DNA of 64,000 nt from NCBI GenBank assembly GCA_973851085.1, contig OZ316776.1, positions 10,788,001 through 10,852,000 of the forward strand, read 5' to 3'. Position 1 is the first letter of the stretch, and the number at the start of each line of letters is the position of its first letter. The translations under genes and the position numbers were made by a program. Of the stretch, positions 20,787-64,000 are shown piece after piece. This stretch comes from Ptychomitrium polyphyllum (lineage: Eukaryota). The notes beneath the pieces were generated by a model. It ran no database searches and was not told the DNA's origin. It saw only the letters and a program-made list of their open reading frames with translations.

Positions 20787-23700
20787 ATGGAGTGCGTGGT
20801 ACAAGGCATTCTGGAAGCCAAGGTCGGTGATTTCCGCCCTCTCTCTTCTTTCCCCTCTACTGTGGATTATCCCCCCCCCCCGATGCGACGATGGATGTGG
20901 CAGCGCTGGATGCAATGCACAGGGTGGGAGTTTCGTCCCTCGCTCAGTGCGATGTGGGCCAGCCTCCGACCTCCCGTGTCGTGGTCGATGCCTGCCTGCC
21001 TGCCTGCCTGTTGCGGGGATATTTGAGGGGTGGGAGCTGCTTATATACCAGCTTTGGCTTGCGCATTTGTTCACTCACACCCTCTACTTCCTCTACCTCT
21101 CCATACTTCCATACCTCTCCATTGTGGAAGCCTGCCTGCCTGCCTGCCTGCCTTGCCCTGTTCTTCTGGTTTCCTCTACCTTAGTTTTACCTCTGTTCCT
21201 ATGTCATACTGCGTGATTGGTTTTCAGTATTTGATCGATTCTTATGGTCAGTGTGTTCGACCGCCACATTCTTGTCCCCCTTCCTTGTAGAAGTTGTAGG
21301 TAGATTTTTACCTTTTTATTCTTTTTCCTCTGTGCCTGGATTATCTCCGGTGTTTTTAGTGTAGTCAACGTGTAATCCAGATGGCTCTGCGAATTAGATG
21401 TGCAGGGATTCTTTAGAACTGTAACGAGTCCAATGTAGGTAGTCTCACGCATTACGTGATTCATACATGTTGTGTACCACCTGCTTGGTGGCCGCAGGTT
21501 TACAGCAGGGTTTACAAGGAACATGGCGGTCCTTTAATTTTTTTTAAAGTGTAAAATTCAAACTTACAGTTGTTTCAATGTGATCCGGTTCCAAGTAGTT
21601 GTTTACTACAACGCTTGCTGTCCCTTTTGAATTCTTTGTCACCTCCTCGCTGTGAGAGTAACTACATCTCTCTAATTCTCTGGTCTATCGTGCAGCAAGG
21701 ATTTCTCTTAGTGCACTCGTAGCAAGGAGTGACCGTGACTACTTTAGAATCGTCCACGATCCTCTGTGTCTGACTCCTTCTTCTCTTTTTTTTTGTGAAG
21801 ACTTCTTTTTTTCCATTTAATTTTTCAGTCTTATGTTTGTCTTGGAATTTCTCGTGACAATTTTAGAATCGGCTACGCATGGCAGATACAGTTGATATTC
21901 AGTTTCTGCATTGGACGTCATCCTAACTTAGCTGCTCCAATGCCACGGCTCTGCATCTGCACCTGCACCCGAGTGCCGTGAAGTCTAATGCCCTGATAGC
22001 CACGAAACCTCTAGTTCTGTTGAGTCCAAAGTGGCACCGAGCTGAAGGTTCAGCTGGGTGTTTAGTCAGATTAATATAGTACGATGGCACGATGGTGCGG
22101 GTGCATTTGCAGAGCTGTGGCATTGGAGCTATCGTCTGCCCTTAGTTTATTTTACAAAATACTCATAGTTCGTGGTGGCGTCGCTTCATTCTTCTTCGCA
22201 GCTATCTGTCTTTCTCCTGCTGTCATGTCATGTTCCTGCATCTGCACCTGCACCGCACAGCTTTGGAGATCGTTCATGAGTCAGAATTGCGTTGTTGCTA
22301 ATCCTGCCTTCAGTTTCTCGCTGGGCTTGAGATGAATCAATCTTTTTCTTCTGGACTTTTCTCTGGCATGATGGTGGAGGTGCTTATGCAGAAATATTAT
22401 ATAGCAGCTGACACACACTCACTAGTTTGTTGGAGTACACACTTCTGTCTGTGATGCATTGGTAATGCCGTTCCACTCCTTTGTGCCATTTGCTTGTTTT
22501 TCGGAGCTCCTCGGCTTCCTTTGCAATTGGTTTTAATTCGTGAATGTGTGTGTTTGCTGCTCCTCGCCGGGTGGACTACAGCATGTGGATGCGTTGGAGG
22601 TTTTATTGCAGGGGCTCTGTGGAGGGCTCCGAGAAACAATTAAAGTTCATGAGATATGTTTGAAAACCGGACCCAATTTAGGTGCGATCTCAAATTTCTG
22701 CTTCTTTTGTAGCTGAATTTATTACTGTCTAAGAGATTTCATGATGTGGAGGCTGTTTACTGTCTTCTACAGGCGCGGTGGCGTCCGAAGTCCATCTCTG
22801 CTGCTCGTTATCCCAGCCGGAACCTGTGTGGTATGTTTCAGCTCTTTCATCTTTGAGCGGTTCCCTTGGTTATGATACTATTGTTCATTTTCTGTTAAAG
22901 TATTTGGAATTTTTCCAAAGTATCGTCAGTTGCAACTTTTAGCAGCTTCTATCATTTACAAGAACCGGCTAGTGATTGTTGGCCAACGATATCAAGGACC
23001 ACACTATCATTCAAAGAATCCCTTAAATCGCGGTGGCCTGTATGCCTGATATTCGTACACTTTGACCTCCTGAATCTTCACTTTTGACTTCACAGAGATC
23101 GGTAAAGGCAAGCAACTAGCTTCCTGTCTGTCTATCCTTTAACCTCCTGTAATTGGGGGTTACATATTTAATATAACTTATCATGGTGCTTTGAAATATT
23201 TGGGCCAGTGGATGAGAGCAACGAAAGTAACTCCTAAGTTAGTACAAGAGCTCTAGAACGGCTTCTGGTGTATTGGCTTGTCTCTGACAGAAAATTGCAA
23301 GCTTATTTACTCTCGCCGAACACGAGGCAGGTCAGTGCGCCATATAGGTGGGGCAATGAGAGGAGCAGGAGCAGAGCAGCTCCCTGCTTTGGTGCGTCCT
23401 GTGCTCGAAGCTGCAATTAGTAACAACTCACTTCGCTTCATGCATGCGCTTGGCTACAAGCTGGACTACGAAATGCTTCGAACGGGCTTTTCGTTCCAGA
23501 TGCTCAAGACAGTTCCTATTCCTGTGACCATCAACATAGCTGTGACGACTGTTCATAGATTGCCTAAAACCCATGCCGTAGATGATGCACAACCAGTTAC
23601 ACCTGGCTTGCACATGGTGCAGCTTACAGCTCCTGCATCTCCTGATAATTATTCCGACGTGGTTGGTGCTATTTCCGGTTTGGCTGAGTACTTGGCCCCG

Positions 23701-25059: not shown

Positions 25060-26780
25060 AATCTTCACATAAGTGCAGTATAATGTATAAGTATGTATGG
25101 GAATGACAATTGGCTATTATGCAGCCCACTTGTGTAATTCAAAATCCAAATAAGCATGGGGTGCCATGTGAAGTATATTTGGCATCTACCAAATGGATGG
25201 GAATGGAATTGATGCCACATCAACAACCTGCCATGCCATGGTACTTCAAATAGAATTACCTTGGCATCTTGCTCTTTCATTCACTATACATGCAGAACTC
25301 TGGTCATAGTGCCAAAAATCTGTAATCCATCACTCTGCATTTCACCCAATTGTACAGAGTTTTCAGCTTATTTGTGATATTTCTTCTTGTCAGCATAGGT
25401 TCCACAGCAGTTTACATTTGGTTGATAACTGAATGTAAGAAACTGATGCTTTGGAAGCAATAGATGCAACTGGATCAGATCAAACATATTAAGGTGCAGG
25501 TTCATGCATTCTGATCTTCTGAAATCCAGGTTCTATATCAGTTTTATAAAAGCAGAATTAGAGGTTACTACATCAAACATCTAATATGAATACTTTCCCA
25601 TAGCATCTGCTATCAAGTTATCACTTACTTAGAAACACATCTGGATACAATTCATCCAAGGCTCTATGATGTTGGTTTGGAAGTATTGAACTTGGATGCT
25701 GATCCTTAGTTAATATTTCCAATCAAAGTATGAAATCAAATTTGGGAGTACAGCAAATTTAAACACTAATGAAAATAGTAGATAGGCTCATAGATTTGGA
25801 GCATTATGACAGTCATCATGATAACTATATGCTTCAGAACCTACATGTGCAGCTAGCCTTCTCCAATGTCATGCTGTTTAAAAGCCTGCTGATGGAATGA
25901 TAACATAAGGCTTTGCCTGCATCTCTAGGTCACATTGACTGAATCAACAGTAAAGGTGGTGTGGGTGGATAACCAATGTTTTTCTCTTGTAAACAAATCA
26001 TAAAGATTATCTGGCAACATATAGTTCCTTCACAGAATGACATCCTTGTGTGGTGGCATGATATGCCAAACGCATCTGCAGCTGGAAGCTGGCAGGATTT
26101 TCAACATCTAGATAGAGATTGTGAGTCGTATTTGCTGTTTTCTGCAATACCAGCTTGGGCAACTAGGTTAAGTAAGTAGTCAACATGCAATTTCTAGCAA
26201 TTGCAAGGGTCAAGTTCAATACATTTTTTTTTAAAGTACATGTTTTAATTGAAAGAGTACGGTTCAAAACTTGAACAATATTTGGTTTCTTTTGACAATT
26301 TATTATAAAAATCCTTCAGTTTAGATTGTTTATATCACAAATTCCCATTACATGCACTACCAGTGTATAATAATATCTTAATATATTTTCCTGTAATTCA
26401 ACAAAACACAAGAATAGTTTCCTGAAATTCTGACTTCAATTCTGAAAATTGAAGTATTTCTTTAAAAACTCTGTGTCTACTTCAAATACATCAATGTAAT
26501 GCTTTACTCAGTACAAGTTTCAATTCTCTTGAAAGAAGGAAAAAATGGATCTATAATATAGTATTTTCATCAAAACTGAGACATCTTGAACTTATCTTTC
26601 TTGAAGCATCAACTCTCACACCTAGCATATGATTAATTTCTAAAAGACTCCTAGACTGATAGTTGTACACATAATTTGGAAAGATGGTACTTTTGAAACT
26701 CAGATGACACAAAATTTATTACTGAGGGATGATCTAATGCATGCACTCAGGACAACATTGCAAGTCTGATATTTGAGGTC
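25060..26780 (-). mobile_element. Probable highly decayed CACTA/En-Spm transposase remnant
   Basis: Minus frame near 25405-25065 reads TYADKKKYHK*AENSVQ...QIFGTMTRVLHV..KVILFEVPW...PYILI, resembling the C-terminal CACTA transposase pattern (T..D..K.TQNSGV..YYG.I..I...VVLF...W...PFIL). A PECMH motif near 26745 may be the D.MH motif. The region is almost CpG-free with many stops. Confidence 0.4.
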
Positions 26781-28498
26781 AGCATCATTTTGTTTAATTT
26801 GCTTAAATTTAGGTGACTGCTAAAGATACATATTTGTCAGCACATTCCATCAAACCACAAGGCAACCAGAGGCTATGGCATCTAATCTCCACATATTAAC
26901 ACAATTGACTGCCAGATTGATCCAAGTGACAATTGACAAATTGCTTCACCTTGAAATAAATTTGCTGATGTTACCCAATGCACCTATTTGGTAAAAAAGT
27001 AGCTATTTCCAGACCATATTGGTGAAATATAAACTAACCTTGGAGGTTCCTAGAAGTTGACCTCTATATTCTCAGAACAAAAAAAACCAAATCTTATAGC
27101 ATACCAATGTGTTGGATCTTGTATAAGAACTAAAGATTTTTCTTAAGAAAATTAAAGAAAATTGAGCTTGACTTTCATTCAAAGAAAGCAGAATGCCTAA
27201 CTCCAAGAGGCCACATGTCCAATTGGACATAAAAGAAAATCACAAGTCCTACTTAAAAGGCTATATCTTCTTATTTGTTGCTTCTATCTATTTAAGCGTT
27301 ATTGGATGTATTGTAAACTTGCATGCAATTCTCTACAAAATATTTGCTGATTATTTTAAAATTTAATTGTAAGATATGTCATTTTGAACTTCATTCTCTA
27401 AACTTAGGCAACATATTTATGCAACATTTTTGTACATCAAATATTATATTCTCAACAATGAACAATTGGATTTTGATGAATTTGTTTGTGAAAGTGTGCA
27501 ATTAAGTCTAGTTCAAGATCATAAGGTTATTTTGTAGAGAATTTTAATAATTTATTACATTAATGTGGATCAAATCTAAAATTTTCGTGGTAAGAAAGCC
27601 ATGTGCACTAAAGGTTTAAAGGTGCAAATTATACCTTCACTTGCAGAGAGGCTGGAATTAGGCACAGTTGTCTCTGTTATAGTACAAGCAACCTTTCTGA
27701 ATAGAAGCACCAAGATGTGCACACAAAATACTCTTGCACTTCCTCCCTCAGTATGTATTAAACCAAACACTCTCAATGTTGCAAATGATGAACATCATTA
27801 TTTGATTGTTGTTTCACAGCTCAGTCGTGACCGCTTTGGGGGCTTGCCATTGTGTGTGCTTCAGGCAAGAGGTGTCTTGTTGTCCAGTCCGAGAGGAACT
27901 GCGTGACCACTAATTTTCAGGGTTCCCTAGGTGTACATCGTGCAGCATTGCAAATCAGTAGTCGTGTTTAAATAAGCTGAAGTAATCTAGAGTGCATAAA
28001 ATGCTAAACGTGCTATGACATTTAATTTAAATAAAACATTGGGGAATCTAATATGTACCACATACTGTAGTTGATAAACTGACTCGATATATCGCCAAAA
28101 ACAGCGTCGTTCTCTTTATTACATACAAGCAGAGCCCATCCACAAAGCTGGAGACAACGCCCTAAGTTTGTACAGAGAACAGGTGGAATGTACAGCTTTG
28201 GCACCCAAATTCAAAGCTCTCTAGAACTTCAGAACCACTTTACAAGGTGTCACCTAATTGACTATGGAACCACAGATGGAACATACTCCCTTCAAGACAA
28301 CAACCTGAAATGCCAAAATTCAAACATCTGCATCAGAATTGTCTACAATCTGGGCTCCCATGAGAATGGATCTCAATACTTCCATACGGTAGATTGGCAT
28401 CTGCGCATCCTTAGATCTCACCAAACTTGCTGAAACTAGCAGCATGTACAGCTTGGACGTTTTCACGAAGGAGGGGACGCACAGACATAAATGGAGAA

Positions 28499-31003
28499 CT
28501 AGCATTCATCATCGGACCAGCCAGCATATATCTTCAAGTCTGGGTCTTCGACATCCTCTGGTTGCAGGTCCATCAAACTGTCGTCATCTGCGGCAGACCT
28601 ATCTTGCTCCCTGCTGGGAGCAAGCATCTGGTCTGGATCTTCCTCATCCTCGCCCTTTGGAGGATCGTACTCGTGTAACAAGCGACGCCATTTTCTAATC
28701 TGGCCATCCCAGCTTCGTTTACTGCAGACCTGTCTTATATCAGGTGTTCGCGGATGTTCCTTAGTTCGCTGGTACCTACAAGGTAACCGATGAAATGGTT
28801 CAGAAAGTACAAGCCGATGTCGATGAACTACTCTTCTTTGAAACCAAAATATTGAGTTTGTACAAATTGTGTTCTCTGAAAAATGGCTGTGGATAATTCT
28901 TCTCACCTTGGGACAGAATCAGTATATCTTTCATAACCAAGCGTGTTTTTCCCATAGTCAATCTGCTTTTGCCGCTGGCAAAGTCGATGAGGGTCTACTT
29001 CAACTGATTTTGCTGGTGCACCTGCAAAATGAACGTGGCACACTTATTATCAGGGCCACTCTGCGTCAGCAATACAAAGAAACTATCGGCCACAACTATG
29101 ATACAAATGTTCTGCTTATGATGGTATCTACAGTCCGTCTCCCGTATAAATGGCATTAGGCTACGCATGAATGAAAAGGATGGCCACAGAGGCAGAGAGT
29201 GATAACTCAAAAGAACGCAAAGAAGAACCCTCATGTAAGCTTAAAGGATCTGAAGCTCCTTGGCGGAACAACTCAAAAGAGTCTACACCTAAACTCTAAT
29301 TACCTCAAACCTCCCAATTGTCGCCACTTAAACCCTGAGTGCACATAAATGTGCATCTGAATCACGAGAAAAACCACCCATGCGCCCCGTGCTAATATAG
29401 GTCACCCAGCACCCAAACCTAGTCCCCCAACCTTCCAGGTCTGTCAGCCCTACAACGACCCATATTCTCTTATTACGGCAGCGGTAAAGCTGCACTTCTC
29501 ACATACCACGGCCATTCCCTTAATGAAAGGAGAGCTCCAAAGTGCAGCAGAGACAAAAACAAAAGATGGGTCTTTCGAGACGATGGCGACATGCGCCATG
29601 AGCAGTCCCCCAAACCCTCATGGGTACACATACACAGCACCATCCGCGACATGCCATCCGCGAGAGAGAATTTCAGGGTTCTGCGCATGAACCAGACCTG
29701 AACACGCTAGAGATTCTAAAATGCTGCACAATGAGGTGGTTGGTCGCTTACTGATGGGAGCCTTCGCAAGAGTGAACTTGTGGCTGTAGTCCACAACCGT
29801 CACGGACTTCTCTTTCGTCGGCTGGGTGCTTTTCAGCATGTTCTCCTTCAGCACCTCCTTCTCCAAGTCACGCTCCTTCTCGGCCCACCGTTCTCGTTTC
29901 TCCTGCCGTCTCTCGGCCTCCATGTCCCGCCCGCCCTTCGCTCCTACGCTCGCCGCCGAGCCACCACTCGCAAGGCTCGCGCGTTCTTTGCCGTCATCGT
30001 TGTCGGAGCGGGAGCTTCGTCCCGAATCCTGAACCTTCCGCACCCCGGACCCCTGGACCTTGCCGATACCCGCACTCAGATCAAATTCCACCCTTCTAAC
30101 CCTCACACTGGCATCGGGGACACCTCGCTCGATTTCATAATCGCCGTAATCCCTGGTCTCTCTGCTCAAAGTCTCCTCAAAGCGACCCCTACGATTCAAT
30201 AACTCCCGCACGTCGGAGCCAATCCTCCCCCTCTCAGGGTAGTAGTCATGAACTTGGCGAGAATCTTCTAAGAAAAGGCTGTGGTCGTCCTCCCCATGCA
30301 CAAACTCCCCTACCTCTCTGCCACTAACCCTAATCTCGTACCCTTTCTCCACAGGAACTCTTCTTGCCGTGAGCTTCTCCTGGACTACCATGCTGCGCTC
30401 GCTCATCATCAATGAACTCCGGTTGCCATCCCCGAACACCGACATCAAATCTTGCTTCCGCTTGCTGCCCCCGAGAGCAATGAACCTGGATGCGGTCCCA
30501 CCATCCCTCACGCGCATGCCCACAGCCCTATCCCATCCCATCCTACCACTCCCTGTTCTGCCCTCAGATTCACGGCTGGAGCGACGCAGTCCTGCATCTC
30601 TCTCATTCTCACCGTCTTTCAGAGCAATCACTCTATGTCCTGGACGAGGGTTCGAGCTCTCAGGAGAAGCCTGCATCTTCATGCGAGATGGAGACCTTTC
30701 ATAGCTATGGTTGTCTCGTTCCGTGTAGCGAATTACGTTCCGGCCGCTTCCTCTGGAGTGGTCATCCGGGTGTGTCTTGATTCGCTTCCAATGGGATTGC
30801 CTGTCTCTGCTGTCATCATCTTCCTCGTCTGAAGAATAGTAGCGGCGTCTGTGGGAAATAGAGCTTTTCGAATATGATAGCAGGGATGGGGAAGATTTCT
30901 CCGCATGCTGGTATGACTTGGACGGGGATGGCCTGGAAGGGGATGACTCTGCGATCCCGGACAGCTGCTTGGTTGCAACAGAATCTGGAATGAGGTACAT
31001 CAT
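28499..31003 (-). CDS. SLBP: Histone mRNA stem-loop binding protein homolog (3 coding exons: 31003-29698, 29021-28907, 28775-28499; 565 aa)
   Basis: Exons 2 and 3 splice to EVDPHRLCQRQKQIDYGKNTLGYERYTDSVPRYQRTKEHPRTPDIRQVCSKRSWDGQIRKWRRLLHEYDP, the complete SLBP RNA-binding domain (RQKQI.YGKNT..Y..Y...VP...HP.TP....S.RSWD.QI..W...LH..DP). It is followed by an acidic tail. Exon 1 is a long R/S/D/E/G-rich ORF with a phase-1 CAG|GT donor that fits exon 2. Confidence 0.93.
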
Positions 31004-32329
31004 CGCCTACAGCTCGCATTTTATTGAATGCCGTTTCTGCAGCAGCATTGCAGGGAGTACACCACCCGCTAGTGCGAAATGTTGTGTTGCTACTGGAACT
31101 CGCAGAACTTGGCGCTGTGTTGATCCTGGAGTACTCGAAATTGAAAAGCTGTAACTGATCTCCTCTGTAAGCTGAATATTGGAAGCTACAGCTTAAGCCA
31201 AAGAGGAATGGACTCTTCTGGAGATTGTTACAAGACCACTTCCACTGATCAATGTACCGTTACCCTAAGTTGTGAATAATCGTTAATTGGTTCAAATTCC
31301 AGACGTCAGTGAAGTGAAGCGCTTGAATTAACAAAACACTGATTCGAACTCAATGAAGAGCCCTGAAGCTATCCCTGCAATCTGAATTCCACTCGAAACC
31401 TAACACTACGAGCTACATGCCCTCCACGGCAACGCCAACATCACCGATCCTCAAAATACCTACGCCAAAAATCCGCAACCCCTCTCTAAAACTAATCTCA
31501 CGAAATGCCAGTGAACCCCCCAAGGTCACCCAAAAAGACTTCAAAAAACCAAAATCTGGAAAAAACATCAAAAACTAAGGTCTTTCTACAGTTATAACTC
31601 ACTCGAAAACCACTCAACAAATCCACCAACACATGAACAGAAACCTTCTGCCAACTTCAGCACCTTCCACGAAACGAACAGAATGAGGCGCTCAACCGAC
31701 AGAGCAGAAACTCGATCGTCCTCACAACAAAGAGAGCGCCATGACGTCCAACCTCAAACCCTAAACCTCGCATCTCCAAGGGGCCGAGACCAACCCTGTC
31801 GAACGGTCGGATGCAGACATTCAGACCGGAAGAATCCAACCCCACCGTACACCCCAGATGAAAATTTGCGGTTGGTGATTTCAACCCCGACCTGCACTGG
31901 CAAAGGGCCCTCGGAGTGTTCGAATACCACCCAAAAGCGCTGGTTCCGTCACACGCGGAGCGCCCCGACGTCGATTCCGTGGGCGCTGGTGCGGCGAGAG
32001 GGAATCCGCACAGATCAACGAGTCCGCACAGCTTTGGTGGGCTTCGAGGAACGGAAGCGATCATTGTGGAGTGTGAAGCGAGGCCCCCTCCTTGAGGACC
32101 TCGCCCCGGGTCCGGTTGCTGGATAGACGGCCTGGATGAACTCTATCCGACGTTGCGAAGGACCTGGGGGATTCGATGGCAGGGATTGGAAACGACGGCG
32201 TGTGATCGACCGCTGTCGGAGCTTTTTTGTGAAAGTCATAACTCGCGGGAACGCGCCTTTCTGCAATTAGCGCGGGAACTTCTGGAGTTTTGTAAGGGTG
32301 GTCGCTTCTCGCAGAGTCCGCTTCGTACT

Positions 32330-32480
32330 GGAGCCCGAGAGCCCAATTCGGCGCTGGCCCGATTCAGCCCGAATCGGACTTTACGATGTTAAGCTCTTGG
32401 GCTCAACTGAGGGCCCTATTAGGATTTTCTGCAATTGGGCCGTCGTCGTGTGAGGCCTTGGAGCCCCATTGAGAGGCCAT
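32330..32480 (-). promoter_or_regulatory. Probable SLBP proximal promoter with clustered GGCCC/AGCCC (site II-like) elements
   Basis: Multiple GAGCCC, GGCCCG, TGGGCT, GGGCCC and TGGGCC motifs sit at the edge of the GC-rich island upstream of the gene. A telobox-like AAACCCTAA occurs at ~31757 in the presumed 5' UTR or intron. Confidence 0.5.
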
Positions 32481-34109
32481 TTGGGTGTGACATTGGGGCG
32501 TTTGTTGTGATTTCTTTTAAGGATTGAGTAGGAACAGCAGAAGCAATTATTATTAGAGTTATAAAGCAAGGGCAATTACTTTTACAGCTTTTATGCTTGT
32601 GGTGTACCTCTTCAAACTCTAGTCTTATTCTTGAATATTAGGACTGGGTGCTCGTGTTTTTTAAGAACCCCTATTTGAAGTTTATAAAGCTTATATTTGT
32701 ATACACTTCTTTTATTATTGTGCATTGCATTTTTCAAGCCTTTGTTGATCAGTAGATATTTATGAAGTGAGAGAAATCTTGGAAACCATTTTCATTGTTG
32801 AAAACAAAACATATAATTTATTACTAAAAATACATATACAATTAATATTTTTAGGCTAATTATAAAATAATTAACAAAACAACCACTTCAAAAACAAAAT
32901 CAATCATTTAAGAAATTAAGTTTTATTTGATATTTACCTATCAAAAAATAGAAAAATTTATTTTTTAAAATAAATTTCATTTGTAGTCAATTTATTATAT
33001 TAAAAAAAAATTAGTGTGAAAAAATAAAATTAATTTGTCTTTGTTTCTTTTACTTAAAAAAATCGAATAATCTTTTTGTAAAGATAAAATTTATTATAGT
33101 TTAGTTCTTTTTTATATAACTATTGAAAGAAGTGTGGCTATAGTTTAAAAATTCCTTCAATTCCATTTATTTAGTATATATAGATTCTTATTTTTGTCTT
33201 ATTTTTCATTTCCATTCCTTTAATATTTGTAAATTTTTTATATATAATTAAAAAAAATTCATCCACCATTGCTATCAAATAGACAAAAGATTCTTATAGT
33301 TTTAATATTTTTTATGGCTTAAAGAAATATATTTATGACTATGTTTGCTTTAATCACTTTTACGTTGATTAGTTGTAATTGAAACAAAATAACTTTGAAT
33401 ACCTCAAAATACAAGTAGTTTTTAATACATGTTTATATTGTGTATTACACCTAGTTTTTCCACTTGTAATTTAGCTACATGATATTATAGATGCAACTCA
33501 ATTGTTGAAATTTGCAATCAAGTAAATTTGATGAAACAACTTTGAAACTCGAGATTAAAAGGACCTTGGTAGATTATGACAAGATCTTTTTAGTACACCA
33601 TTAAATAAAGATTCCAATAAACTTAAGTTTGTTTAAAAGAAATGAAGGATGGAGCTAGGATAGAGATTTTAATGCAAGAAGTCTATTGGTAACAAAATTT
33701 CTTATCTACATTTGGAGCTACATATTTTTTTTGATGCTTAGAATTTAAAGTTCACCTTTATAAGGGGTGGTGCCTCTTGACATTGCACTTCTAACAAAAC
33801 TAAGTTCATGTGTTTTAAAGCTTTGAGGTAATTATAGTACTTGGTTGAGTGAAAGGGGTACTACCATTGCATTCCAAAATGTTGACCTACTTATATTTAT
33901 ATATGGGTATGAATTTAAAGCTCATCTATCAAGATTGGTGGAAAAATTTTAGATGAAAAATGAAAATGAGGTATGAATGATTTTGGAATTAATATTTGCA
34001 CTTTTGAATGAATTATCTTAATGTAATGATAAATTAAATTGACATTCATGAGGTGGATATAGCATGAATTCTAAGATTGGAATTAAACATTCAAACCCAT
34101 TTTAATTTA

Positions 34110-43394: not shown

Positions 43395-46300
43395 ATGGCG
43401 GGCCGGGGCCGCGGCCGCGACCTCACCATGCCGGCCTGTGAGTAGTCCGCATTCACTTCTTTCTTTCATTGCTCTTGCTCTGTGTCGCATTGCGCTCCCA
43501 TGCGCCTCTGCGGAACTCCAGACTTCCTGTTGCGGATTCCGTCGTGCCTTTTTCCTTGCTTTGCTTTGGTTGCGTTGCGTTGCGTGCGTGGAGGGAGGAC
43601 TTAGGTTAACTCTGGAGTTGGATTCTGGCAGTTCTGGTATTGGTTTTGGCCTATTGGAGGTAAGTGCTGGTTGTTTTTGTCTTGTGGTGGATTGCGGCAC
43701 CGAGGGAGAGAGAGAAAGAGCCGGGACGGTGGGGTGGAGGGGCCAGGTGTTCTGTGTTTTTAAGGTGGTACCCCGTGCGGAGACTGAAAGAAACTTGAAA
43801 CTGAATGTGTTTCGATTAGCTGGAGTCTGAGATTTTTTGCGGTGGACGAGAATTAAATTGCATGGAGAGTCATGACAATCAGTTTCAACTGAGGAGGAGG
43901 GGGAATCGCCAATGAGTGACAGTAGGATATCATTTTGACCTCGGAGTCGTGACTATTCTTTGGTGTCGTCCGGCGTAATTTAGGCTGGTTCAGTTTAGGG
44001 CTAAGGGTTACAGAGTCCATTTGCTTAAAAGTGATGGTATTTGAGCATCATGGACGAGGATCCCTGCACTGGTTCCGAATGACGGTGTATTTTGAATGGT
44101 ATCTGAAGTGGCTTAAGTTGTCTGGTTGGAATTGGTCCAAGGAATAAGAAGATTCAAGCTGCAAATCGAAATTTTTGTCTGTCTTAGGTGAAACATTGAC
44201 CTGGCAGAATCTTAAAGTTCAGCTACGAGTTTCCTAAAAACCTAGGGCATCGGGCACAGGCGTTAGATTGATTTGAGAGATTGATCGACAATCTCTTTAC
44301 TTTACATTCAAACATCGGTGCTCACTGTCAATGTTTGAAGGAGCATAGACAACGTTCAGGGGCCGTTGGTTTGGTTGAGTTCAACTCTCTGTAGACCCGC
44401 TTGAATGAGGACAGCGCATTTGCCAGGATTTTAGTTCTGAGAATCTGAGTGAGGTTTGCTTTTAGAGCATAGTGCCTAGTTTTAATTTCTCCATTTTGAC
44501 ACACTCAACCACCATTCCTGTTATATCTTGTCCCTTCTGCCATTGCTTGGACTATGCCTTACTGTTATCTCATGACATACTTTTGGACGGAGAGATGCGT
44601 CTGGGTTCAGGTGATTGTATCGCGGTTATTAGAGTCCGTCCGCTTGCTTTCATCGACATGGATCGGTACCTTAGAGTTACCTTATTGGCAGAGTAGACCT
44701 CAAAGACCGCAGTTTGATAACCTTCAGTTTATTTAGTGTCATACGTTGTGAGAGCGACATGGTGAATCTATAGTGCTCGCGTATACTCATTATTGTATTG
44801 ATGTTATGAGACGAATTGTGTAAATAAATTCTGAAAGCTGTGTGTTCTGACAGGGATGAAAGGGGGTCAAGTGCCTGCGTCTGACAAGCCTCCACCTCTA
44901 GGCGCTCTAGCAGACGATGGCTCTGAAAGCAACCACTCCATGCGGCCACTGGCTCCTGGTGTTCCTGGAGGAGGCCCTCTAGGTTTACAGTTTCAGCAGC
45001 ATGGACAGGGGCCGCCCTTTATGGGACATCAGCGGCCTCCGTTTCAACAAATGAACCATTTTCGGCCTCCTGGGACTCAGCAAGGACCTCCATTTCAGCC
45101 GAACTTGCAAAGTCCACCTCAGCACTTCCCCCGCGGTCCCCCCAATGGTCCATTTCCCCCTGGATCAAATCATCAGCACCCTGGGCAGTTTCATAGTTTG
45201 CCACCGCAGCAATATTCCATCAATCCCGGTGGCCAGGGTAACCCAGGGCAACCTCCTTTTTCGAGACCTCCTTTTAACCATCCTCAGCAATTTCCTCCTC
45301 AACAGTTCCCATTTCAACCTCACCCTGCTGGCAATCATGTTGAACCTTCCTTCTCGGGACCCCCGCCTACTGCTGGAGGTCCGCCACCTCATGCTGGACT
45401 ATCTTCCTCACCTTTCCCGCTCTCTCAAAGTCAGCAACATGAAGGGCAGTTTCAGCCGCAGCCACAGCCACAGCCACAGCTTCATGCTCCTTCACAAAAT
45501 GAACCTGCCAGTCGTGGGGTGCCCTTAGAGAGTATTAGTGGACCATTGAATGGCGGTGGTCCGTTAAGTCAGCCACATCAACCCCATTCAGATTTGGGTG
45601 GATTACCAGATTCTCAATTGTCGCAATTTTCACCTCATGGACATCACCAAGCCCATCCTCGAGATACTTTTCCTCAAATGATGCAAGGAGGATCTGGTGG
45701 AGGAGGTCCTCCTCACTGGTTGTCTCAAGGACAACCTCCACTGCATATGCAGATGCCTCATATGCAACCTCAGCGTCCCTGGTCCCATCCGGGTTTCACA
45801 CTACCAGCGCAGGAGCAGCCCCGACAAGGTTACCCGCTGCATCCGCAAGGTCCTGAACAGCAAACGCATCAGAAACGACAGACTGGTTTTCATGATGCCC
45901 CAACATCGCATCTGCAGGGTCAACCAAACTCCGATCAATTTCGAGAGAATCCTTCAGCGCAAGAAAAACTAATGGATCAACAGCAGCCCAGAAAACGGAA
46001 GTCTCGATGGGACCCGGTACCAGAAGAGAAAGCTAGCCCTGATGTTGAACATCGAGAAAGCACAACAGGGGGGTGGCCAGGAGGACATCCACAGGATCAG
46101 TGGAAGCCAGGACCGAGCCTAGGGTTTGCACGAAATGGACAGGGCTTTTACAATAACAGAGATGTTGATGGGTTTCGGATGGAAGTTGCAGTGCAGGAGG
46201 CAGTGCTGAGAGAACAAGAAGCTAGTGCCCACGATGTTATTGCTCAACAAAGGTGTGTATCATGTCAAGGCATGCTTGTGAATTTGGAAAATATGTTAAT

Positions 46301-49300
46301 TTACTGGATGCATTGTACATATGTATCGAAATTACTTCGATTACTAGCTAATTTTGCTCTTTTGTAAGTTCCTCTATACTGCGGAAACCTCTGTCTCCTT
46401 TTTGACCTGAATTCTGTCTATTGAATCGAAAGTAGTAGTTCTCTAAATTTTTGAAGTAAAATGCAGTTAGTTATGTTCTCATGAGGCTACATCCGTCTCT
46501 CTCACTTAACAGGAGAGATAACAGGCCTTTCAACACCTTGGATATGAGTGAACGAGATGTTCTTTCGGCTCGACATGACGAGGGTGAACTCAAGGTGAGA
46601 ACTTACACTTACCTGTCTGAATCTTGATGTGAACCCATTCGTGGATGACACAAATCTGGAGCTCTATGATCAACTCGAGATGAGAGGAGTTAGACCTCCT
46701 TAAGGATTAGAGCCTTTTATGGTTAAAAACCTGATCGAAATAAGAGAAATTGGTCCCGTTGTTTATGTATAATGAACACTTATTTGTCTACTTTAGCAGC
46801 TTCCCTTTGTCTAAGTGGACTTGACATTGGCACCATGAACTATCTTTCAGCTTCTATAATCGATTTGATCAGATAATACTTGGATTGTACAAATTAGCCA
46901 TTTGCCCTTGGTTTTGGATAGATCGTCTCTATTCCAAGGTGTTCTGTCTTCGCAAATTTATCCTCGAAATCGTGAGCATCTTTATCAGTAGTGTAGTATT
47001 CGTCAGCTCAACTATTTTGCTTGTGTGGCCTTGTTTTTCCTATTTACCACTAAAGTGAAAGTTTCCAACTTACTCTAGTTGGAGAAATACACACCAAGAG
47101 GTTGGTGCAGTAGATCGAGGGTAACAACAAGGATAGTAAACTTTGTGGGAAGAGGGTGTGGTCGGTGAAGTGTGGCTGACTTGTGGATGCAGGAGAAGCT
47201 TCTGAAGATGACCTCTGAGCACCGGTTGGAGATGGCTTCTAAGCGGGGAAGGCCCACCCAACTAGAGCAAGGTCGTGATGGTGGTGGGGTTATATGGCAG
47301 ATTCTGTGACACTAATATAAGGACAATTTGTGCATCTTTTTTTGTGTTACTTTCTTTGCACCGGAATTCAAGGACGTGGACGTTCTTTGTTTATCAATTT
47401 CTCATAACTATCAGATTGCATTAGATTGTTGGTGTGGCTTGATATCTTCTAGTAGAGTAAGTAAGCAGCTTACTCAATGAGCCAAATACGTGGTCTTTAT
47501 GCATGCGAGCTGCCGTCTAACACCAGATATGCGCATGCCTTCTATTCCTGTTTTTCCCAAAAGGGTGGATAACATTCTAGCTCTTATTACCGGGTTTGAG
47601 CATCTGTATCTAAGATCTTTTATCTGTAAATTTCTTGTGCTGCAGACAATATGGAGATTGGTAATGGTTACGGTGTGCCGGGAGGGGGTGCTTATTACAA
47701 TGGTGCACGTCTACCAATGTTTACATTAGCTGCTGATTCCAATGTGTTCAAGCCAGATTTTAATGGGCCTTCTGCTAGGCCTGCTTTCGATGGAAGACAT
47801 CCTGGACAATTTGAAGGCTCTTTGGGCATTCCCGATGGAGGTGAGCGCTTTAGATCAGCTGGTGCCCGGATTAATATTCCCGGGCCTGTCGATGAGCAAG
47901 CTGGGACTATCAGAAGGGATGTCGATCATCGGGACGTCAAGAACTTTGATGGAATGGGTGATAAAGGAAGCTTGCCCGATTTTCTTAAAGAGAGGTTGAA
48001 AGCGCGTGGCATTCTTAAGGATGGACTAGACATTAATTCCCCAAATATGGTGAGTCGCCTTAGCTTCTAATTTGTATGAAGAAAAAGTTGTTCATTAACA
48101 GGATGTCTTCAGGAGCAATAATCGATCAACGTTCACTTTGTTAGATCTTTACTTGTTGGTTGATTTGTTCTGTCCTTGGAGCTGGGCACAGGCTTAGTCT
48201 TCGTTTTCGATGCTAGTATCGTTTTAAGAACCTTTGTTTTGCTCAAGGTTGAGTTGTTCTGGTTGATGCTTTTCGAGTATGATGTTTTTTGAACCACTTT
48301 ACAATGAGCATGCAAAACCTTCTTCTTGTGCAGAATACCTCTGAAAATGAATCAGCAGATGCGCTACCTCCAGGCTGGGTATGCAATGGCGCCTACACTT
48401 ATTCTCCCCGACAGCAACAGTTCATCGCAATTGTCTGCCTTCAATGATGTTTTCAGGATGTAGTTGAATTGTTGGATGGATTATCACTGGTAGCCTTTTT
48501 CTAGTACTCATGTTTAACTTTCTTGTTAGAAAATCATGTTGAATGAAAGCAGGTTTTTCCGTGAATTATTGCTTTTTTGTTGCTCTGGCTGGATTACTGT
48601 TGTTCTACAATAGGATTTCAGTACATCCAGATGCTTTTCTGACACGATGATGATTGTCCAGGTGGAAGGGAAGGATCCGGATAGTGGAGTTACGTACTAT
48701 TATAACCAGTCGACAGGGACAAGCCAGTGGGAACGTCCGGCTTCTAAAGTTCTGCTTCCACCACCACCCCCTCCACCTTCTCTCGCACAGTTGCCTCTTG
48801 ATTGGCAAGAGGCCACTGATTCCGCTTCAGGTATACTTTAGAAAGTGGTTTCAGTTCGTGTTGATTTTTGCTCCGCACCCTATATATTTGTTATTAAATC
48901 TTTTCCTTTGCAGTAAATGTTTTATGTGAAGGAATATTATAGCGTGGTCCTTATTGAGGATGCTTAAGAGCTGCATTGCTTGTACTTTATGGCAGGTCAA
49001 AAGTATTATTATAACACAAAGACAAATGAAACACGTTGGGAGAGGCCCAGGATAGCTACTCCTGTTGCAGAGGATAGTTTTGAAAATCATGTATCAACTG
49101 GCAATGGTGATGTATCCTTGGCTGCAATTAATGGCTCAAAGTTCAAAAAGTGTTTAGGTTGTCAAGGTTGGGGCCGAGGACTCGTACAAGCCTGGAATTA
49201 TTGTAATCACTGTACTAGGTACGGATCGTTCATGATTTTAACACATACATGTATGTACAAGCTGCATGCAGATCATAATTTGTCCTTACATTTTCTGATA

Positions 49301-50673
49301 CAATTCACCAGATTTAGACTCACCCTGTTTAATAGGATAAACAAGCAAACTTAAATTAGTGTGTGTTCTCTGATATTTGATCTTCATGTGCTGAATGTGT
49401 TTTACATCTATGTCGTTTTACACTTGTGCTTAAACAGAGTTTTCAATATCCCGGTGCCTCCACAACATGTTTCACCTGGCCCAAAACGTTCAGCAGCAGC
49501 TGCTGCTGCTGCTCTTTCGACCGACGGAGTTGAGGATGTGGAAGAGCATGAACCGGAATTCAAGCACAAGTGGCAGGCAGATATCGCAGCAGCAGTGGGA
49601 GTTGATGTTGTGAAGAAGGACCCAAAGCAAAAGTATATCTAATCACCTCATGAGTGTAGATTATGGTGACGAATGTAGCTTCATCTTGACAGTCTTAGGT
49701 ATCTGTGTAGTGAGTGTCTACTAGATACTTACTTGATGAGGCTTGTTACTTAAGACTTATGTTTCGATTAGCTTATCCATTCTTTGTGGGACTGAGGAGT
49801 GTTGTTTTGTATGCAGGCTGGGCTTGAAGCCCCCAATAGCAAAGGTGAACAAAAGGGATCCGAGAAAGAGAGGTCCTGCTGACAGTGATGTTCTTGACCC
49901 GATGGACCCAAGTTCTTACTCGGATGCACCTCGCGGTGGTTGGTAAGTTCTGACATTTAGAATTCATGCTTTGCTTTGATATAACAAGATAGCAACTTGT
50001 TGGATTGAATGTTTGAACCTCCCTGTTTAACTTTCCAATCCTCACTTTCAGGGTAGGGATGTTTATAGCTGAATGCAATTTTCTCATAGCAATGAAGTAG
50101 CCCTCTCCGGCACTGGTATTTTTGACAAAGAGCTGTGGTTTACGGTAAATAAAGTCTTTATTTACGGTATCTTTTGTGTTTGTTTTTGGTTATCCACAGG
50201 GGAGTCGGGCTCAAGGGACAGCAACCTAAAGCAGCTGACACTACCGCTACAGTAAGTTCTTCAGCACTCTCTTTAGAAATGACTGAGTTTTTTTAGATGA
50301 TTTCGAGGTCTTACGAGTAAGGGGTGAGAGAATGTATTCTGTTCTCCTTGTTCGACAGACTTTCGTTTTGCATGTGTATAGTACGTTGTTACGCAGCTGT
50401 TCGCGACACATCCTTATCATTTTATTAACAGTGATTGTACATCTTAGATTGGACGAAGGAAATCAGTTCTGTACATATTATTTATGATAAGTTCATACCT
50501 TTTGTATCCTTATCTGTCTCCAGGGCCCTCTGTTTCAACAACGGCCGTATCCATCACCTGGTGCGGTTTTGCGAAGAAATGCTGAACTAGCTGGAGGCAA
50601 GCCAACCGGCCCTAATTATGCACCTATACACAAAAGAGGGGATGGGAGTGATGGCTTGGGTGATGCTGATTAG
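43395..50673 (+). CDS. PQBP1: PQBP1/Npw38-like WW-domain splicing factor (12 exons: 43395-43437, 44854-46252, 46513-46594, 47193-47271, 47646-48049, 48334-48378, 48662-48830, 48996-49218, 49438-49632, 49817-49942, 50200-50251, 50524-50673; ~988 aa)
   Basis: Two WW domains (LPPGW...[20 protein letters not shown]...[15 protein letters not shown]), a CxxC..CxxC motif, and the PQBP1 C-terminal signature [17 protein letters not shown]...[23 protein letters not shown]. All junctions are GT-AG and in phase (2967 nt). Exon 1 splices to give [17 protein letters not shown]. Confidence 0.92.
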
Positions 50674-56899: not shown

Positions 56900-57318
56900 A
56901 TGTAGCGGGAGAGCATTCTCGTTACGAAGATTCGAAGGGAGGTGGAACTGGGCGAAGATTTGAGAAGTAGAGACTTGCGGTGGAATACCCGTACTTAGAT
57001 GATGCGATTTGTCCGCCGGCATTAGAATTTTGGTTCGGTTGTTGAGTTTCGATGTAAGGTCTTGCTAATGCAGAAACAGAGCGGGGATCGGTAGAGTGAA
57101 CTTTTGCTATTGCTTGAATGAATCGTTCCTACCTCCGAATTATGTTACAGCGTGTCACTACTGAATTTCCATCCCTGGTTTTTAGGAGTTTTGGGGTGCC
57201 CAGTTGAAGTGAAGCAGGTGACAACCCTGTAGGATTTGTACTCTTTGGATCTAGTATTCCAGTGCGAGCAACGCAAGTAGAGGTGCATTGAGTCTTGTTG
57301 CACTTTTAGTTAAGAAAA

Positions 57319-59180
57319 ATGAGGGATAATATGAAGTCGCTGGAGGCTACCTGGAGGACGCTATTGAGCCACCAAAGCTCTCGAGCGGTGGCTAAGTGGG
57401 GTAACCTCAAGACGAGAAACCTACAGAAGTTAGTATACAACATTCGGTTAACCGTCCTGTGCGGAATCATCACCATCCTCGTGCTCCGCGGCACTGTGGG
57501 CACTGGATTTTTCTCCTTTGGCTCTGGCCCGGCCAAGTCCATCGATCCGGGCTTGGACCGACACGTCCTCCCGACCGTTGTGGAGAGACAGCATGAGGAA
57601 GATTTGGATAAAGACTTCCCGATCGACAAGAACGTGCCGTTTGCACTCGGCCTTCCCATCAAAGATTGGGACCAGCAACGCGCGGAGTGGCTCAGCACTC
57701 ACAAGAACCTCACAAAGAACAAGTATGGCAGAGAGCGCATCCTCTTGATTTCGGGATCTGCGTCCAAACCCTGCCAAAACCCAGTTGGCGACCACCTGCT
57801 CGTTAAATCCTTGAAAAACAAGATGGACTACTGCAGGTCAGCAATGTTTTACCTCTTTTTACCCATTAAAAATAATCTACAATATTTTGATTCTTTGGTT
57901 TGCATAATTATATTCTAATGGTTATAAATTGTTGGATTCGATAAAATAATGATAATCTGGATTTGAAGGATTCAAACTTGAATAGTTTAAGATGATACCT
58001 AGGTTGGAGGCCTTGTGCATGGTTGAAGCTTTATAGCTTGTTGGAATTCCAACCTGTGTTAACAGTTCAGGCGAATAAGTGAAACGATCATCCAAGTTTG
58101 AATCACGAGATTTCCAAACTGGGTTGATCTCTTGTAAATGGTCAGTATAGAAGAATTGTCTCTAATTACTATGCAAGAATCAGCCGTTTACTGTTACCAT
58201 TCCTAAAGGTTAAGGTTTGAAACGTGTGGATAGAGTTTCCCAAGTTTGTGTAAATTGTTCAATTCTTCAGGTTTTGCGTGAGGAGCATCAGAGAGAAATC
58301 CTCATTCTTTGAAGCTTAATCGATCCCGGATTTCTTATTATTAGGTTACGTTTTAGAAATCAGCTGAAAAGAATCGTTCATTTGTAGGTTGCACGACATC
58401 GAAATCTACTACAGCATGGTGGTGGTCGACACCCAGATGATTTCCTTCTGGGTGAAGCACCCAATGATCCGGAAACTGATGCTGGCCCACCCGGAAGCGG
58501 AGTGGATCTGGTGGATGGACTCCGACGCCATGTTCACCGACATGAGCTTCGAGCTTCCGCTGCACCGCTACCAGGACCACAACATGGTGCTCCACGGCTT
58601 CGAAGACCTCATCTTCGAGAAGAAGTCCTGGGTGGGCATCAACGCCGGCAGTTTCTTGATGCGCAATTGCCAGTGGTCACTAGACATGCTGGACGCCTGG
58701 ACCTCCTTTGGCCACCCGCGAGTCGCTGTTGAGGTCGGTAAGCGACTCAGCGAGGTTCTGCCCGATCGACCTGTGTTCGACTCCGACGACCAGTCGGTAC
58801 TCGCGTATCTACTCGTCACGCAAACCCAGAAATGGGCACCCAAGGTTTTTCTAGAAAATTCCTACTATTTGCACGGTTACTGGGTCATCATCGTGGACAA
58901 GTTTGAGGAGATGATGGCTAACAGCAAGCCCGGCACCGGTGACGAGAAGTGGCCGTTTGTCACCCATTTCGTGGGGTGCAAACTTTGTGGGAATGAAGCG
59001 TCCTATGGCATCAAGCGCTGTTTGTTGCAGATGGAGAGGGCGTTCAATTTTGCCGATAACCAGGTTCTGCAGCATTATGGCTACATGCACCGGACGTTGA
59101 ATAGCTCCAAGGAAGTGGGGCGCGTTAGGTTGGATTCAGCTGACCCTCTTGGTCTCGGCCAGCCTCCGGTGAGTGCATGA
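57319..59180 (+). CDS. XXT: Glycosyltransferase family 34, xyloglucan 6-xylosyltransferase-like (2 exons: 57319-57836, 58388-59180; 436 aa)
   Basis: N-terminal signal anchor (LTVLCGIITILVLRGT), DWDQQRAEWL, PCQNPVGDHLLVKSLKNKMDYCR-LHDIE, HPEAEWIWWMDSDA (DXD), DDQS, WPFVTHFVGCK and MERAFNFADNQ. Confidence 0.95.
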
Positions 59181-61657: not shown

Positions 61658-63746
61658 TCACTTGTAGATATTTTTATCAGCATCTTGAGCATTCCTACTA
61701 CTGGTAGCGATTGCTATTTTAAGAATAATTTCACGGATTTGACATGAGTTCCGGCACTTACACTCCTATATAAAGAAACAGAAAATACATCACAATTAGG
61801 CTTAGCATTCATTCCCTTGGCAAAGAGTGGTGAATTGTCATGAAAAATTTACTGGAGCGCGTCTTTGGTCAAGCTGGGGTTGCTCGGAATTAGCCTGAAA
61901 TTGCAGAGTGGCAAATTCACCATTTCATGAGCATGAAAGATGTGAACCAATACAACGAATGGTTGCTCGGAGTTTTTGAGCACCTCCAGGACAAGGACGT
62001 CCGCAAGCTGGAGGTTGTGTGCGTCCACGAAGTCTTTCCAGCCCGGACCTTGCAAGAAGCCTTGGTCGGCATTCCAGTTGACTTTCTGTGAAATTCCCTT
62101 AGAGTCCAACAAGATCAATTCTGCGGTTTCCGGTGGAAGTATTTCTGCGCATCTGTGCGACAGGAACTGCAGATCCACAATGTAAGTTACATAATTTAGT
62201 TGACTGAACTTCACCTTTAAGAGTATCGTGACTTTCCTCAAACCCAACCCAACATATAATTGCACCAGGAAAAAGTATAGATCAAAAAGAGGAAACTTAC
62301 ACAATCGTAGGTTTTCTCGTTGAAGCCGACTCTCATCACCACAGTTGCGTGTGGGTTTGTTGTGGTAGCTGAAAGGCATCTTGCACCTTGTAAAGCCTGC
62401 TGCTTCTGGTCCTCTGTAACAATTCCAGCGGAACTTACACGAGCACTTGAACTTGGGCTTGTTACATTGGGGATGTCTAGACGCTCTGATGTCGCAGGTC
62501 TAGGTTCCATGTCTCTTAGTTTGATTGGGGTTTCTTCTATTATAATTACACCACACTTTGCACATTTTGTGCTGCTTTCAGAAGAATAAGACGCAGCTAT
62601 TCCAAGATCGGGGTTTGTCCTTTCCAAACCAGGTTGGAAGACAGCACTAGGCTGAGGTTCCTCTACATGGCTAATCTCAAATCCTATCAGAGTAGGATTT
62701 TCTGCAGTTACTTCTCTGGCAGTTTCCAGTACCTCATTAACCTCATCTTGCCGCTGAGCTGGAAAAGGAATCTTCTGACCAACAGCTTCCCCTGGTAGGT
62801 CAGAGATTCCATTGAAAAGTTTCTCGGTTTCATGACCATCATCCGGAGTCACCTCATTATCGTTAGACCCCTCAACTAATGGCTCCTCAACCAGCTCTTC
62901 TCCATCTCGAAAACTGCTCATAAATCCAAAACAGTAATCACCATTTAGAGATACCTGGTTCAATATGAACAAGTCCAGCTTTCATGGGTTGTCAATAAGT
63001 TACATGATTCAACTTGTTTCAATTCATCATGAACTTTCCAATACGGATAATATTAGATGCTAGAAAAATTTAGAAGGTACTCACAAACTACTAAGAATAT
63101 TTGGGCCAATCCATGAGCTCGATCAAAACGGTGTAACAGAACGGGGAGCTTACATAAGAAGTTGCATTAAGTTACTTCACAGCATTCCACGTCTTTATGT
63201 CAGAAGACTAATGTTTTTTGAATACATTACTGTCTAAGACTTCACTTACGAGGATTTGCTTCGATATGTAGCCAGACGGGTCCTGTCAGCAAAAAGAAGC
63301 CATTCTTCAGGAACCTGACACAAGGAAAAGCATGTAAATGGGTTAAATGAACACGTTATGTTCAGATTGATACAAGCGCTTAAACTTTGTGAGTGACGGA
63401 GAGTGAATTAACATACCCATGTATCATGACAATGTGAGAGAGAATACCACTTCACAAGATATTGTAGTTTTCTTTCTTTTTGATTTTTAATCTCAAAAGT
63501 GTATGGGTCTCGCCGCAACCCAATTATATTCTCCACCTTTTTGGGAGATGGCATCAATCTGGTTTGTAATTTTGCAGGTAGAACTGGACTACCCATTTCT
63601 ATTGCATGCATTTCATGCAAGCAGAGAGGACAGAACCAATCTCCGTTGGGTATAGTCTGAAGAGGGGGGTCTAAACAAAATGAGTGAAGAGCCTGTGTAC
63701 AATTTTCTCCATCACATAACAACATCTGATCAGCTGCACCTGCAAA
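61658..63746 (-). CDS. 5'-truncated PHD finger + chromodomain + B3 domain protein (exons ~63746/63739-63417, 63314-63250, 62913-62301, 62166-61921 [or read-through to stop at 61849], 61765-61658)
   Basis: PHD: LLCDGENC..ALHSFCLDPPLQTIPNGDWFCPLC. Chromodomain: VENIIGLR...QYLVKWYSLSHCHDTW|VPEEWL. B3: NPHATVVMR...LILLDSKG...VNW...LQGPGWKDFVDAHNLQLADVLVLEV...VLVHIF. Junction phases 0, 2 and 0 are consistent. The first PHD cysteines are not visible and presumably lie beyond the window. Confidence 0.85.
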
Positions 63747-64000
63747 CTGCAATAATAAGCACAATATATTATCAATAACATGCAACCATACTAGCCTTAC
63801 GTGGCCACGTAGTGTCATGTGTATGAAAATAAGGCCAATGTTCTACTTCCAAACAAAAACACAGGCCACCCACGAATTCCTAACTCTCCCGGTAATACAA
63901 CCCCTAGTAACACAAAATGAAATATAACCATATCCCTGTTGACCTGTGTATGTTAAAAGTCAAAGCGGAGGTTTGGTTACATTGGACTTTGTACTAGGGG

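What the first reader, a model, noticed from the sequence alone, without database searches (positions are those of the whole stretch)
28499..29021. Intact histone stem-loop binding protein (SLBP) gene in an apparent land plant
Seen: two small exons, one missed by the ORF track, splice into a complete SLBP RNA-binding domain. It retains the HPxTP motif (the phospho-Thr site in animal SLBP), SxRSWD.QI..W and an acidic C-terminal tail. Established: SLBP binds the 3' stem-loop of non-polyadenylated replication-dependent histone mRNAs in animals, with homologs in green algae and protists, whereas seed-plant histone mRNAs are polyadenylated. Inference: this lineage either keeps a stem-loop histone mRNA pathway or has repurposed SLBP for other hairpin RNAs.
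Basis: partly seen in the sequence, partly recalled or inferred. Interest (0 to 1): 0.88.

Follow-up and report, generated by a model that had tools for sequence, protein, structure and literature searches.

The report
Moss histone stem-loop binding protein gene
This is an intact moss gene for SLBP, the protein that likely grips the hairpin at the end of tail-less histone messages; it is real but ordinary, because this system was described in mosses, ferns and cycads in 2026.

Summary
The two small minus-strand exons each pass Pfam PF15247. With a large upstream exon they form an unbroken three-exon, 547-aa gene (31003 to 28499), 78% identical to Ceratodon purpureus SLBP, so the organism is a moss. 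The RNA-contact, phospho-Thr and helix-B processing residues that I could align are kept. [quoted passage not shown] Earlier scan notes found moss histone stem-loops on other genomes. This genome's histone genes, U7 and LSM10/11 could not be checked (no genome held). One lead remains: a C-terminal I-[YF]-x-x-[WF] motif, found in 18 of 19 named land-plant SLBPs, in red algae and oomycetes, and in 0 of 12 animal ones. I did not find it described. It may be a partner-docking site; untested.

The parts
29752..31003 (-). Coding exon 1 (aa 1-417): long, mostly disordered N-terminal region with three S-P-x-K/R sites, one predicted long helix and the land-plant DYSHKF motif
   Evidence: tblastn 74% over 419 aa to Ceratodon P0002 and gene model; no Pfam hit; sites at aa 21, 26, 104; low pLDDT except helix 357-392 in the P. 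patens-cluster orthologue P0003
29022..29751 (-). Intron 1, 730 nt, GT..AG; exon 1 reads on into it to a stop at 29618
   Evidence: Ceratodon isoforms P0259/P0260 leave the full-length sequence at the same point
28907..29021 (-). [quoted passage not shown]
   Evidence: PF15247 45.2 bits; ungapped match to PDB 4L8R chain C and 4TUX
28776..28906 (-). Intron 2, 131 nt, GT..AG
   Evidence: Ceratodon isoform P0261 stops at this junction
28499..28775 (-). Exon 3 (277 nt): HPRTP loop, helix C, acidic tail, stop codon
   Evidence: PF15247 58.8 bits; match to 4L8R, 4TUX, 4TUW
28658..29001 (-). SLBP RNA-binding domain, aa 425-495, split by intron 2
   Evidence: coordinates; 68 of 71 identical to Ceratodon, 65 of 71 to P. 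patens
28742..28756 (-). HPRTP, with Thr466 equivalent to human phospho-Thr171
28924..28935 (-). YERY of helix B, the D/E-R processing determinant of animal SLBP
   Evidence: role in animals from PMC5435866 passages
28517..28531 (-). C-terminal I-Y-x-x-W motif (IYAGW, aa 538-542), conserved in plant, red-algal and oomycete SLBPs
   Evidence: 68 of 253 domain-bearing rows, 0.11 expected from shuffled tails
29774..29791 (-). DYSHKF motif (aa 405-410), 15-20 residues upstream of the RNA-binding domain, shared by moss, fern and gymnosperm SLBPs
   Evidence: pattern in 28 of 253 rows; coordinates

Best explanation
This is an intact three-exon moss gene for a 547-aa SLBP that likely binds the 3' stem-loop of replication-type histone mRNAs, which likely end without a poly(A) tail as reported for Physcomitrium. 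Shown: open reading frame, full RNA-binding domain, orthology to moss SLBPs, conserved key residues. Inferred from animal SLBP: Arg476 (human Arg181) reads the second G of the stem; phosphorylation of Thr466 (Thr171) tightens binding through Lys442, Tyr447 and Trp485; helix-B ER plus the acidic stretch after the domain help recruit the cleavage machinery; the protein then stays on the mRNA in place of poly(A)-binding protein. Speculative: it lacks the animal SLIP1-type motif and may use the C-terminal I-Y-x-x-W motif to dock a partner, and the N-terminal S-P-x-K/R sites may give cell-cycle control.
For: Pfam on both exons. 547 aa with no internal stop. 77.7% identity to Ceratodon P0002 and 64.5% to P. 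patens P0263. Sister to Ceratodon in the tree, support 97/93. Ungapped alignments to human and fly SLBP crystal chains keep the equivalents of Y144, K146, Y151, R153, H168, T171, P172, R181, W183, I187, W190, with D152 as E as in the fly; roles from passages of PMC10388802, PMC4215118, PMC5435866. The model of orthologue P0003 (65 of 71 domain residues identical) matches 4QOZ_C at E 5.9e-07, rmsd 0.7, TMt 0.95. P. patens has two SLBPs, histone stem-loops, poly(A)-less histone mRNAs and proteomic evidence of their translation (PMC13130582 section 6 and Table S7).
Against: Nothing on the RNA side was testable in this organism: no genome is held, and the window has no Rfam hit at gathering score. 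Expression was not shown. SLBP can be present but unexpressed, with fully polyadenylated histones, as in Cycas panzhihuaensis. The fold was predicted for an orthologue, not for this protein. Whether U7 snRNP makes the 3' end in mosses is not shown in what I read: the preprint reports LSM10/11 and FLASH homologues outside animals by homology only.
Confidence: 0.86

Rival explanations
1. The gene is intact but decoupled or nearly silent in this species, and its histone mRNAs are polyadenylated.
For: Precedent in Cycas panzhihuaensis. Plant stem-loops and SLBP are described as partly decoupled (preprint). Database isoforms without the RNA-binding domain exist in Ceratodon and P. patens.
Against: The domain is 68 of 71 identical to Ceratodon while the whole protein is 78% identical, which points to strong selection. 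The one moss assayed uses the pathway.
Confidence: 0.07
2. The protein has been repurposed and mainly binds other hairpin RNAs.
For: The 424-aa N-terminal region has no Pfam match. A second, diverged copy is present in the same sample, which could allow specialisation.
Against: The residue that makes the base-specific contact and its surroundings are unchanged. Across plants, SLBP presence and expression track poly(A)-less histone mRNA. No alternative target is in evidence.
Confidence: 0.05
3. The locus is a pseudogene, a contaminant (alga, animal, protist) or an assembly artefact.
For: No RNA evidence was obtained. Part of exon 1 is shared with a second copy, so a local assembly chimera cannot be excluded.
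Against: Full ORF, canonical introns at the Ceratodon positions, same length as the orthologue. One 21-kb contig carries exons 2-3 with upstream window DNA and no differences (it may be the source sample). A neighbouring GT34 gene has Streptophyta-dominated best Atlas clusters.
Confidence: 0.02

Closest known systems
Physcomitrium patens SLBPs XP_024386817.1 and XP_024395648.1 (PMC13130582, Tables S7-S8)
   Same: Same architecture: 551 aa with the domain at 426-496 in the P. patens entry of Table S8, against 547 aa with 425-495 here. 64.5% identity overall and 65 of 71 in the domain to the XP_024386817.1 record. Same flanking motifs. Two copies there, and apparently two here.
   Different: Another moss species. 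Stem-loops and poly(A)-less histone mRNAs were measured in P. patens and could not be tested here.
Ceratodon purpureus M758_2G121800 (P0002; named 'hypothetical protein' at NCBI)
   Same: 547 aa, 77.7% identical, same two intron positions, sister in the tree.
   Different: Ceratodon has D instead of H before P-R-T-P; this gene keeps the animal-type H. H is in 120 and D in 93 of 249 aligned rows, so this is common variation.
Human and Drosophila SLBP (PDB 4L8R, 4QOZ, 4TUX, 4TUW)
   Same: Three-helix domain, phospho-Thr site, G-reading Arg, helix-B D/E-R motif, acidic segment after the domain (8 of 20 residues; human 6 of 20 per PMC5435866).
   Different: Much longer N-terminal region. No DW/SW dipeptide outside the domain, so no SLIP1-type motif (motif form recalled), in line with the preprint's statement for all non-animal SLBPs. 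The loop after TP is DIRQVC, not NKFKKY. It has a C-terminal I-Y-x-x-W motif that 0 of 12 sampled animal SLBPs have.
FLASH LDLY/LDIY motif (PMC7026596, PMC3884669)
   Same: A short hydrophobic-x-I/L-Y motif in a disordered region; in animals it recruits the histone cleavage complex. Position -2 of the SLBP tail motif is L in 29 of 62 rows.
   Different: Different protein. The resemblance is three or four residues and was not tested. The SLBP motif adds a conserved W/F, and the D of LDLY is T, S, K or A in 60 of 62 rows (D in 1).

Membership tests
SLBP (Pfam PF15247) | About 70-aa RNA-binding domain above the Pfam cut-off | tested here: met
   45.2 and 58.8 bits on the two exons separately, cut-off 27, covering profile 2-30 and 33-70
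SLBP (Pfam PF15247) | Three-helix fold of the solved SLBP domains | tested here: met
   Tested on orthologue P0003 (65 of 71 identical), not on this protein: helices 429-443, 446-454, 476-491, block pLDDT 92-98; the 6 Foldseek matches with E<=0.001 are all SLBP chains
SLBP (Pfam PF15247) | Arg181 equivalent (base-specific contact to G7) and core Trp183, Ile187, Trp190 | tested here: met
   R476, W478, I482, W485 by ungapped alignment to 4L8R chain C; roles
SLBP (Pfam PF15247) | Phospho-acceptor Thr-Pro with phosphate-binding Lys146 and Tyr151 | tested here: met
   T466-P467, K442, Y447. Sequence only; phosphorylation not shown. Human 160-166 (Arg160, Arg163) were outside the printed alignments.
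SLBP (Pfam PF15247) | Binds the histone 3' stem-loop | not testable with these tools
   Needs EMSA or CLIP
Processing-competent SLBP (SLBP1 type) | D/E-R in helix B and acidic residues after the domain | tested here: met
   YERY at aa 447-450; 8 of 20 acidic; criterion from PMC5435866
Metazoan SLBP-SLIP1 translation module | N-terminal SLIP1-binding motif | tested here: not met
   Crude test: the only DW/SW dipeptide lies inside the domain (motif form recalled). Agrees with the preprint.
Stem-loop histone mRNA pathway in this organism | RF00032-type stem-loops behind core histone genes | not testable with these tools
   No genome held; no histone-like ORF noticed among the window's ORFs of 100 aa or more and no Rfam hit. 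Reported for P. patens.
Stem-loop histone mRNA pathway in this organism | U7 snRNA, LSM10, LSM11, FLASH | not testable with these tools
   No genome held. The preprint reports homologues of LSM10 and LSM11 in land plants.
Stem-loop histone mRNA pathway in this organism | Poly(A)-less histone transcripts | not testable with these tools
   Needs 3'-end sequencing

The most novel reading that the evidence does not exclude
The C-terminal I-[YF]-x-x-[WF] motif, kept from red algae and oomycetes to mosses, ferns and conifers and absent from the animal SLBPs sampled, is an ancient docking site by which non-animal SLBP recruits the cleavage complex directly (like FLASH's LDLY) or a translation factor in place of SLIP1. 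It would explain how tail-less histone mRNAs are made and translated outside animals.
Probability: 0.2. Interest if true: 0.65.

Novelty: already known. Interest (0 to 1): 0.2.

Why it matters
As a discovery it adds little: one more moss orthologue of a gene whose presence and likely role in mosses were published in 2026. Its value is as a pointer. Mosses are genetically tractable, and how their tail-less histone mRNAs are cut and translated without the animal SLIP1 module is open in both papers read. The conserved C-terminal motif gives a specific five-residue target for that question.

Tried and rejected
Genome-wide search for histone stem-loops, U7, LSM10/11: impossible, no genome held. Rfam: 0 hits at gathering score in the window; one chance CRISPR-DR21 match (E 2.9) in 26000-33000. 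Expression: no RNA holder listed, which is no evidence either way. E2F-like pattern TTTSSCGS (recalled): 3 matches against 7.9 expected, none in the upstream region; rejected as support for S-phase control. Docking of the tail motif onto the domain: block pLDDT about 62 at 541-550 with a 4-residue helix, inconclusive. No complex prediction was run, as I had no candidate partner sequence. Paper searches with no useful result: SLBP+YDRY 0, SLBP+Marchantia 0, SLBP+Physcomitrella 3, none on this topic by title, motif strings 10, none on SLBP by title or abstract start. Lopez and Samuelsson 2008 is not held. The tree (61 rows, 105 columns, 5 short rows skipped) is too weak for deep branching: Physarum P0034 falls among ferns. 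Only the pairing with Ceratodon is used. In one search the Y144 and K146 columns are partly misregistered in about 25 rows, so I did not use those counts. The three homologue searches listed 49 of 49, 120 of 145 and 120 of 290 hits; no angiosperm name was among them, but that is not a test of absence.

Full report
Observation. Scanned separately against Pfam, each hits only PF15247 SLBP_RNA_bind above the curated cut-off of 27 bits: 45.2 bits on profile positions 2-30 and 58.8 bits on 33-70. Each also hits only SLBP chains in the PDB (4 and 5 distinct sequences). This is not chance.

Full gene. A 462-codon stop-to-stop frame upstream is the first coding exon. Splicing 31003-29752 to the two small exons gives 1644 nt and 547 aa with no internal stop. 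The Ceratodon purpureus protein P0002 is also 547 aa and aligns over all three exons. Identity is 425 of 547 to Ceratodon, 353 of 547 to P. patens P0263, 189 of 547 to Sphagnum, and 26-28% to a fern and a 'Gb_' protein, which I read as Ginkgo from recall. Shorter Ceratodon isoforms leave the full-length sequence at exactly my two junctions, which supports the intron positions. In a tree of the domain with flanks the protein is sister to Ceratodon (97/93). The organism is therefore a moss. No whole genome is held.

Anatomy and mechanism. The domain spans aa 425-495. Ungapped alignments to 4L8R chain C, numbered from Thr171, give Y440=Y144, K442=K146, Y447=Y151, E448/R449=D152/R153, H463=H168, T466=T171, P467=P172, R476=R181, W478=W183, I482=I187 and W485=W190. 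[quoted passage not shown] Phospho-Thr171 bonds to Lys146, Tyr151 and Arg163 and through water to Trp190, and raises affinity 7-11-fold (PMC4215118, passages). The helix-B D/E-R motif and the acidic residues after the domain recruit U7 snRNP (PMC5435866, passages); the moss protein has YERY and 8 acidic residues in the next 20. An AlphaFold2 model of orthologue P0003 from a 55-row alignment shows the three helices at block pLDDT 92-98, one more long helix at 357-392 and disorder elsewhere. It matches 4QOZ_C at rmsd 0.7. So the protein most likely works like animal SLBP on the RNA side. All functional steps are inferred; none was shown for this protein.

What is known. PMC13130582 (abstract, passages, section 6, supplement searches, and part 29 of 31 of supplement 2 with Tables S7-S9) reports SLBP in green algae, P. 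patens, Adiantum and two Cycas species, and its absence from Selaginella and angiosperms. [quoted passage not shown] Table S7 lists two P. patens SLBPs; XP_024386817.1 is in P0003's cluster. The preprint 10.64898/2026.10.14.759114 (abstract, sections 5, 7, 12, passages, Discussion part 1 of 2; supplements not seen) recovers SLBP in mosses, algae and seed plants, canonical stem-loop features in bryophytes, LSM10/11 homologues in land plants, and no SLIP1-binding motif outside animals, looking only in the N-terminal 150 aa. It credits Lopez and Samuelsson 2008, which I could not read. Two earlier scan notes on other genomes report moss histone stem-loops and reach the same verdict; they are unchecked AI notes. 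The claim 'SLBP in a land plant' is thus already known. This sequence is an ordinary further orthologue, not itself among the listed hits (best exon-3 identity 81%).

What is left over. Among 253 of 254 rows with the domain (stored hits plus this protein), the tail after the domain carries I-[YF]-[DEANSQ]-[DEGN]-[WF] in 68, against 0.11 in shuffled tails and 0 in 43,428 residues of N-terminal parts. By named group: moss 4 of 4, fern 6 of 6, gymnosperm 8 of 9, green algae 3 of 8, red algae 3 of 3, oomycetes 5 of 5, animals 0 of 12, amoebozoans and others 0 of 6. Caveats: the pattern was widened after looking at the data (52 with the first pattern; 62 with the second), the rows are related, most animal rows are insects, and the queries were plant sequences. 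A second motif, D-[VY]-[ST]-[HNQ]-[KRT]-[FY], precedes the domain in 28 rows, all named ones land plants. I found neither motif described (searches; 'C-terminal' occurs 0 times in the preprint's main text), but subscription papers and the preprint's supplements were not searched. The tail motif loosely resembles FLASH LDLY/LDIY, which recruits the histone cleavage complex (PMC7026596 and PMC3884669, passages). The resemblance is short and the D position does not match, so this is a lead only.

Second copy. Contigs of two runs of one sample, possibly the source of the window, carry a second copy of both small exons: 38 differences and 5 gaps over 290 bases, 17 differences over 128, a different intron 2, and net lengths that keep the frame. 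Only 40 of 95 differences were shown, so stop codons were not checked. P. patens also has two SLBPs, so two copies are not unusual.

Verdict. Real, intact, correctly identified and already known. Interest 0.2, nearly all of it from the untested tail motif.

Noticed in passing
window 29530-30136 and 30699-31003; runs X1, X2: The second SLBP copy differs by about 13% in the two domain exons and has an unlike intron 2, yet one contig at roughly doubled depth (65 against 35.5 and 30 in X1; 595 against 372 and 395 in X2) covers 607 bp of intron 1 and exon 1, next to a diverged patch at 30137-30259. This mosaic hints at recent gene conversion between paralogues. Depth is not copy number and both runs are one sample.
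   Followed up: partly
window 29618-29751 (5' part of intron 1): Exon 1 reads on into intron 1 for about 44 codons. Database isoforms that end after exon 1 and lack the RNA-binding domain are listed for Ceratodon (437 aa, twice) and P. patens (434 and 448 aa, the latter RefSeq isoform X2). This may be conserved unproductive splicing or mere annotation of retained introns.
   Followed up: partly
window 29828-29917 (aa about 363-392): A charged stretch conserved across mosses including Sphagnum is predicted as a confident long helix in P0003 (block pLDDT 93-96): a possible coiled-coil or partner site in an otherwise disordered region.
   Followed up: no
window 30680-30943 (aa 21, 26, 104): Three S-P-x-K/R sites of the CDK type (consensus recalled) in the N-terminal region; the 'Gb_' proteins also start with SP-rich runs. 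No chance control was run.
   Followed up: no
window 57310-59177, 62241-63842, 44835-49351, 23257-23700: Neighbours look like ordinary plant genes: GT34 glycosyltransferase (E 6e-46), PHD plus chromodomain protein, WW-domain protein, Med18-like piece below cut-off (5 of 14 pieces had a hit). None links to histone processing.
   Followed up: partly
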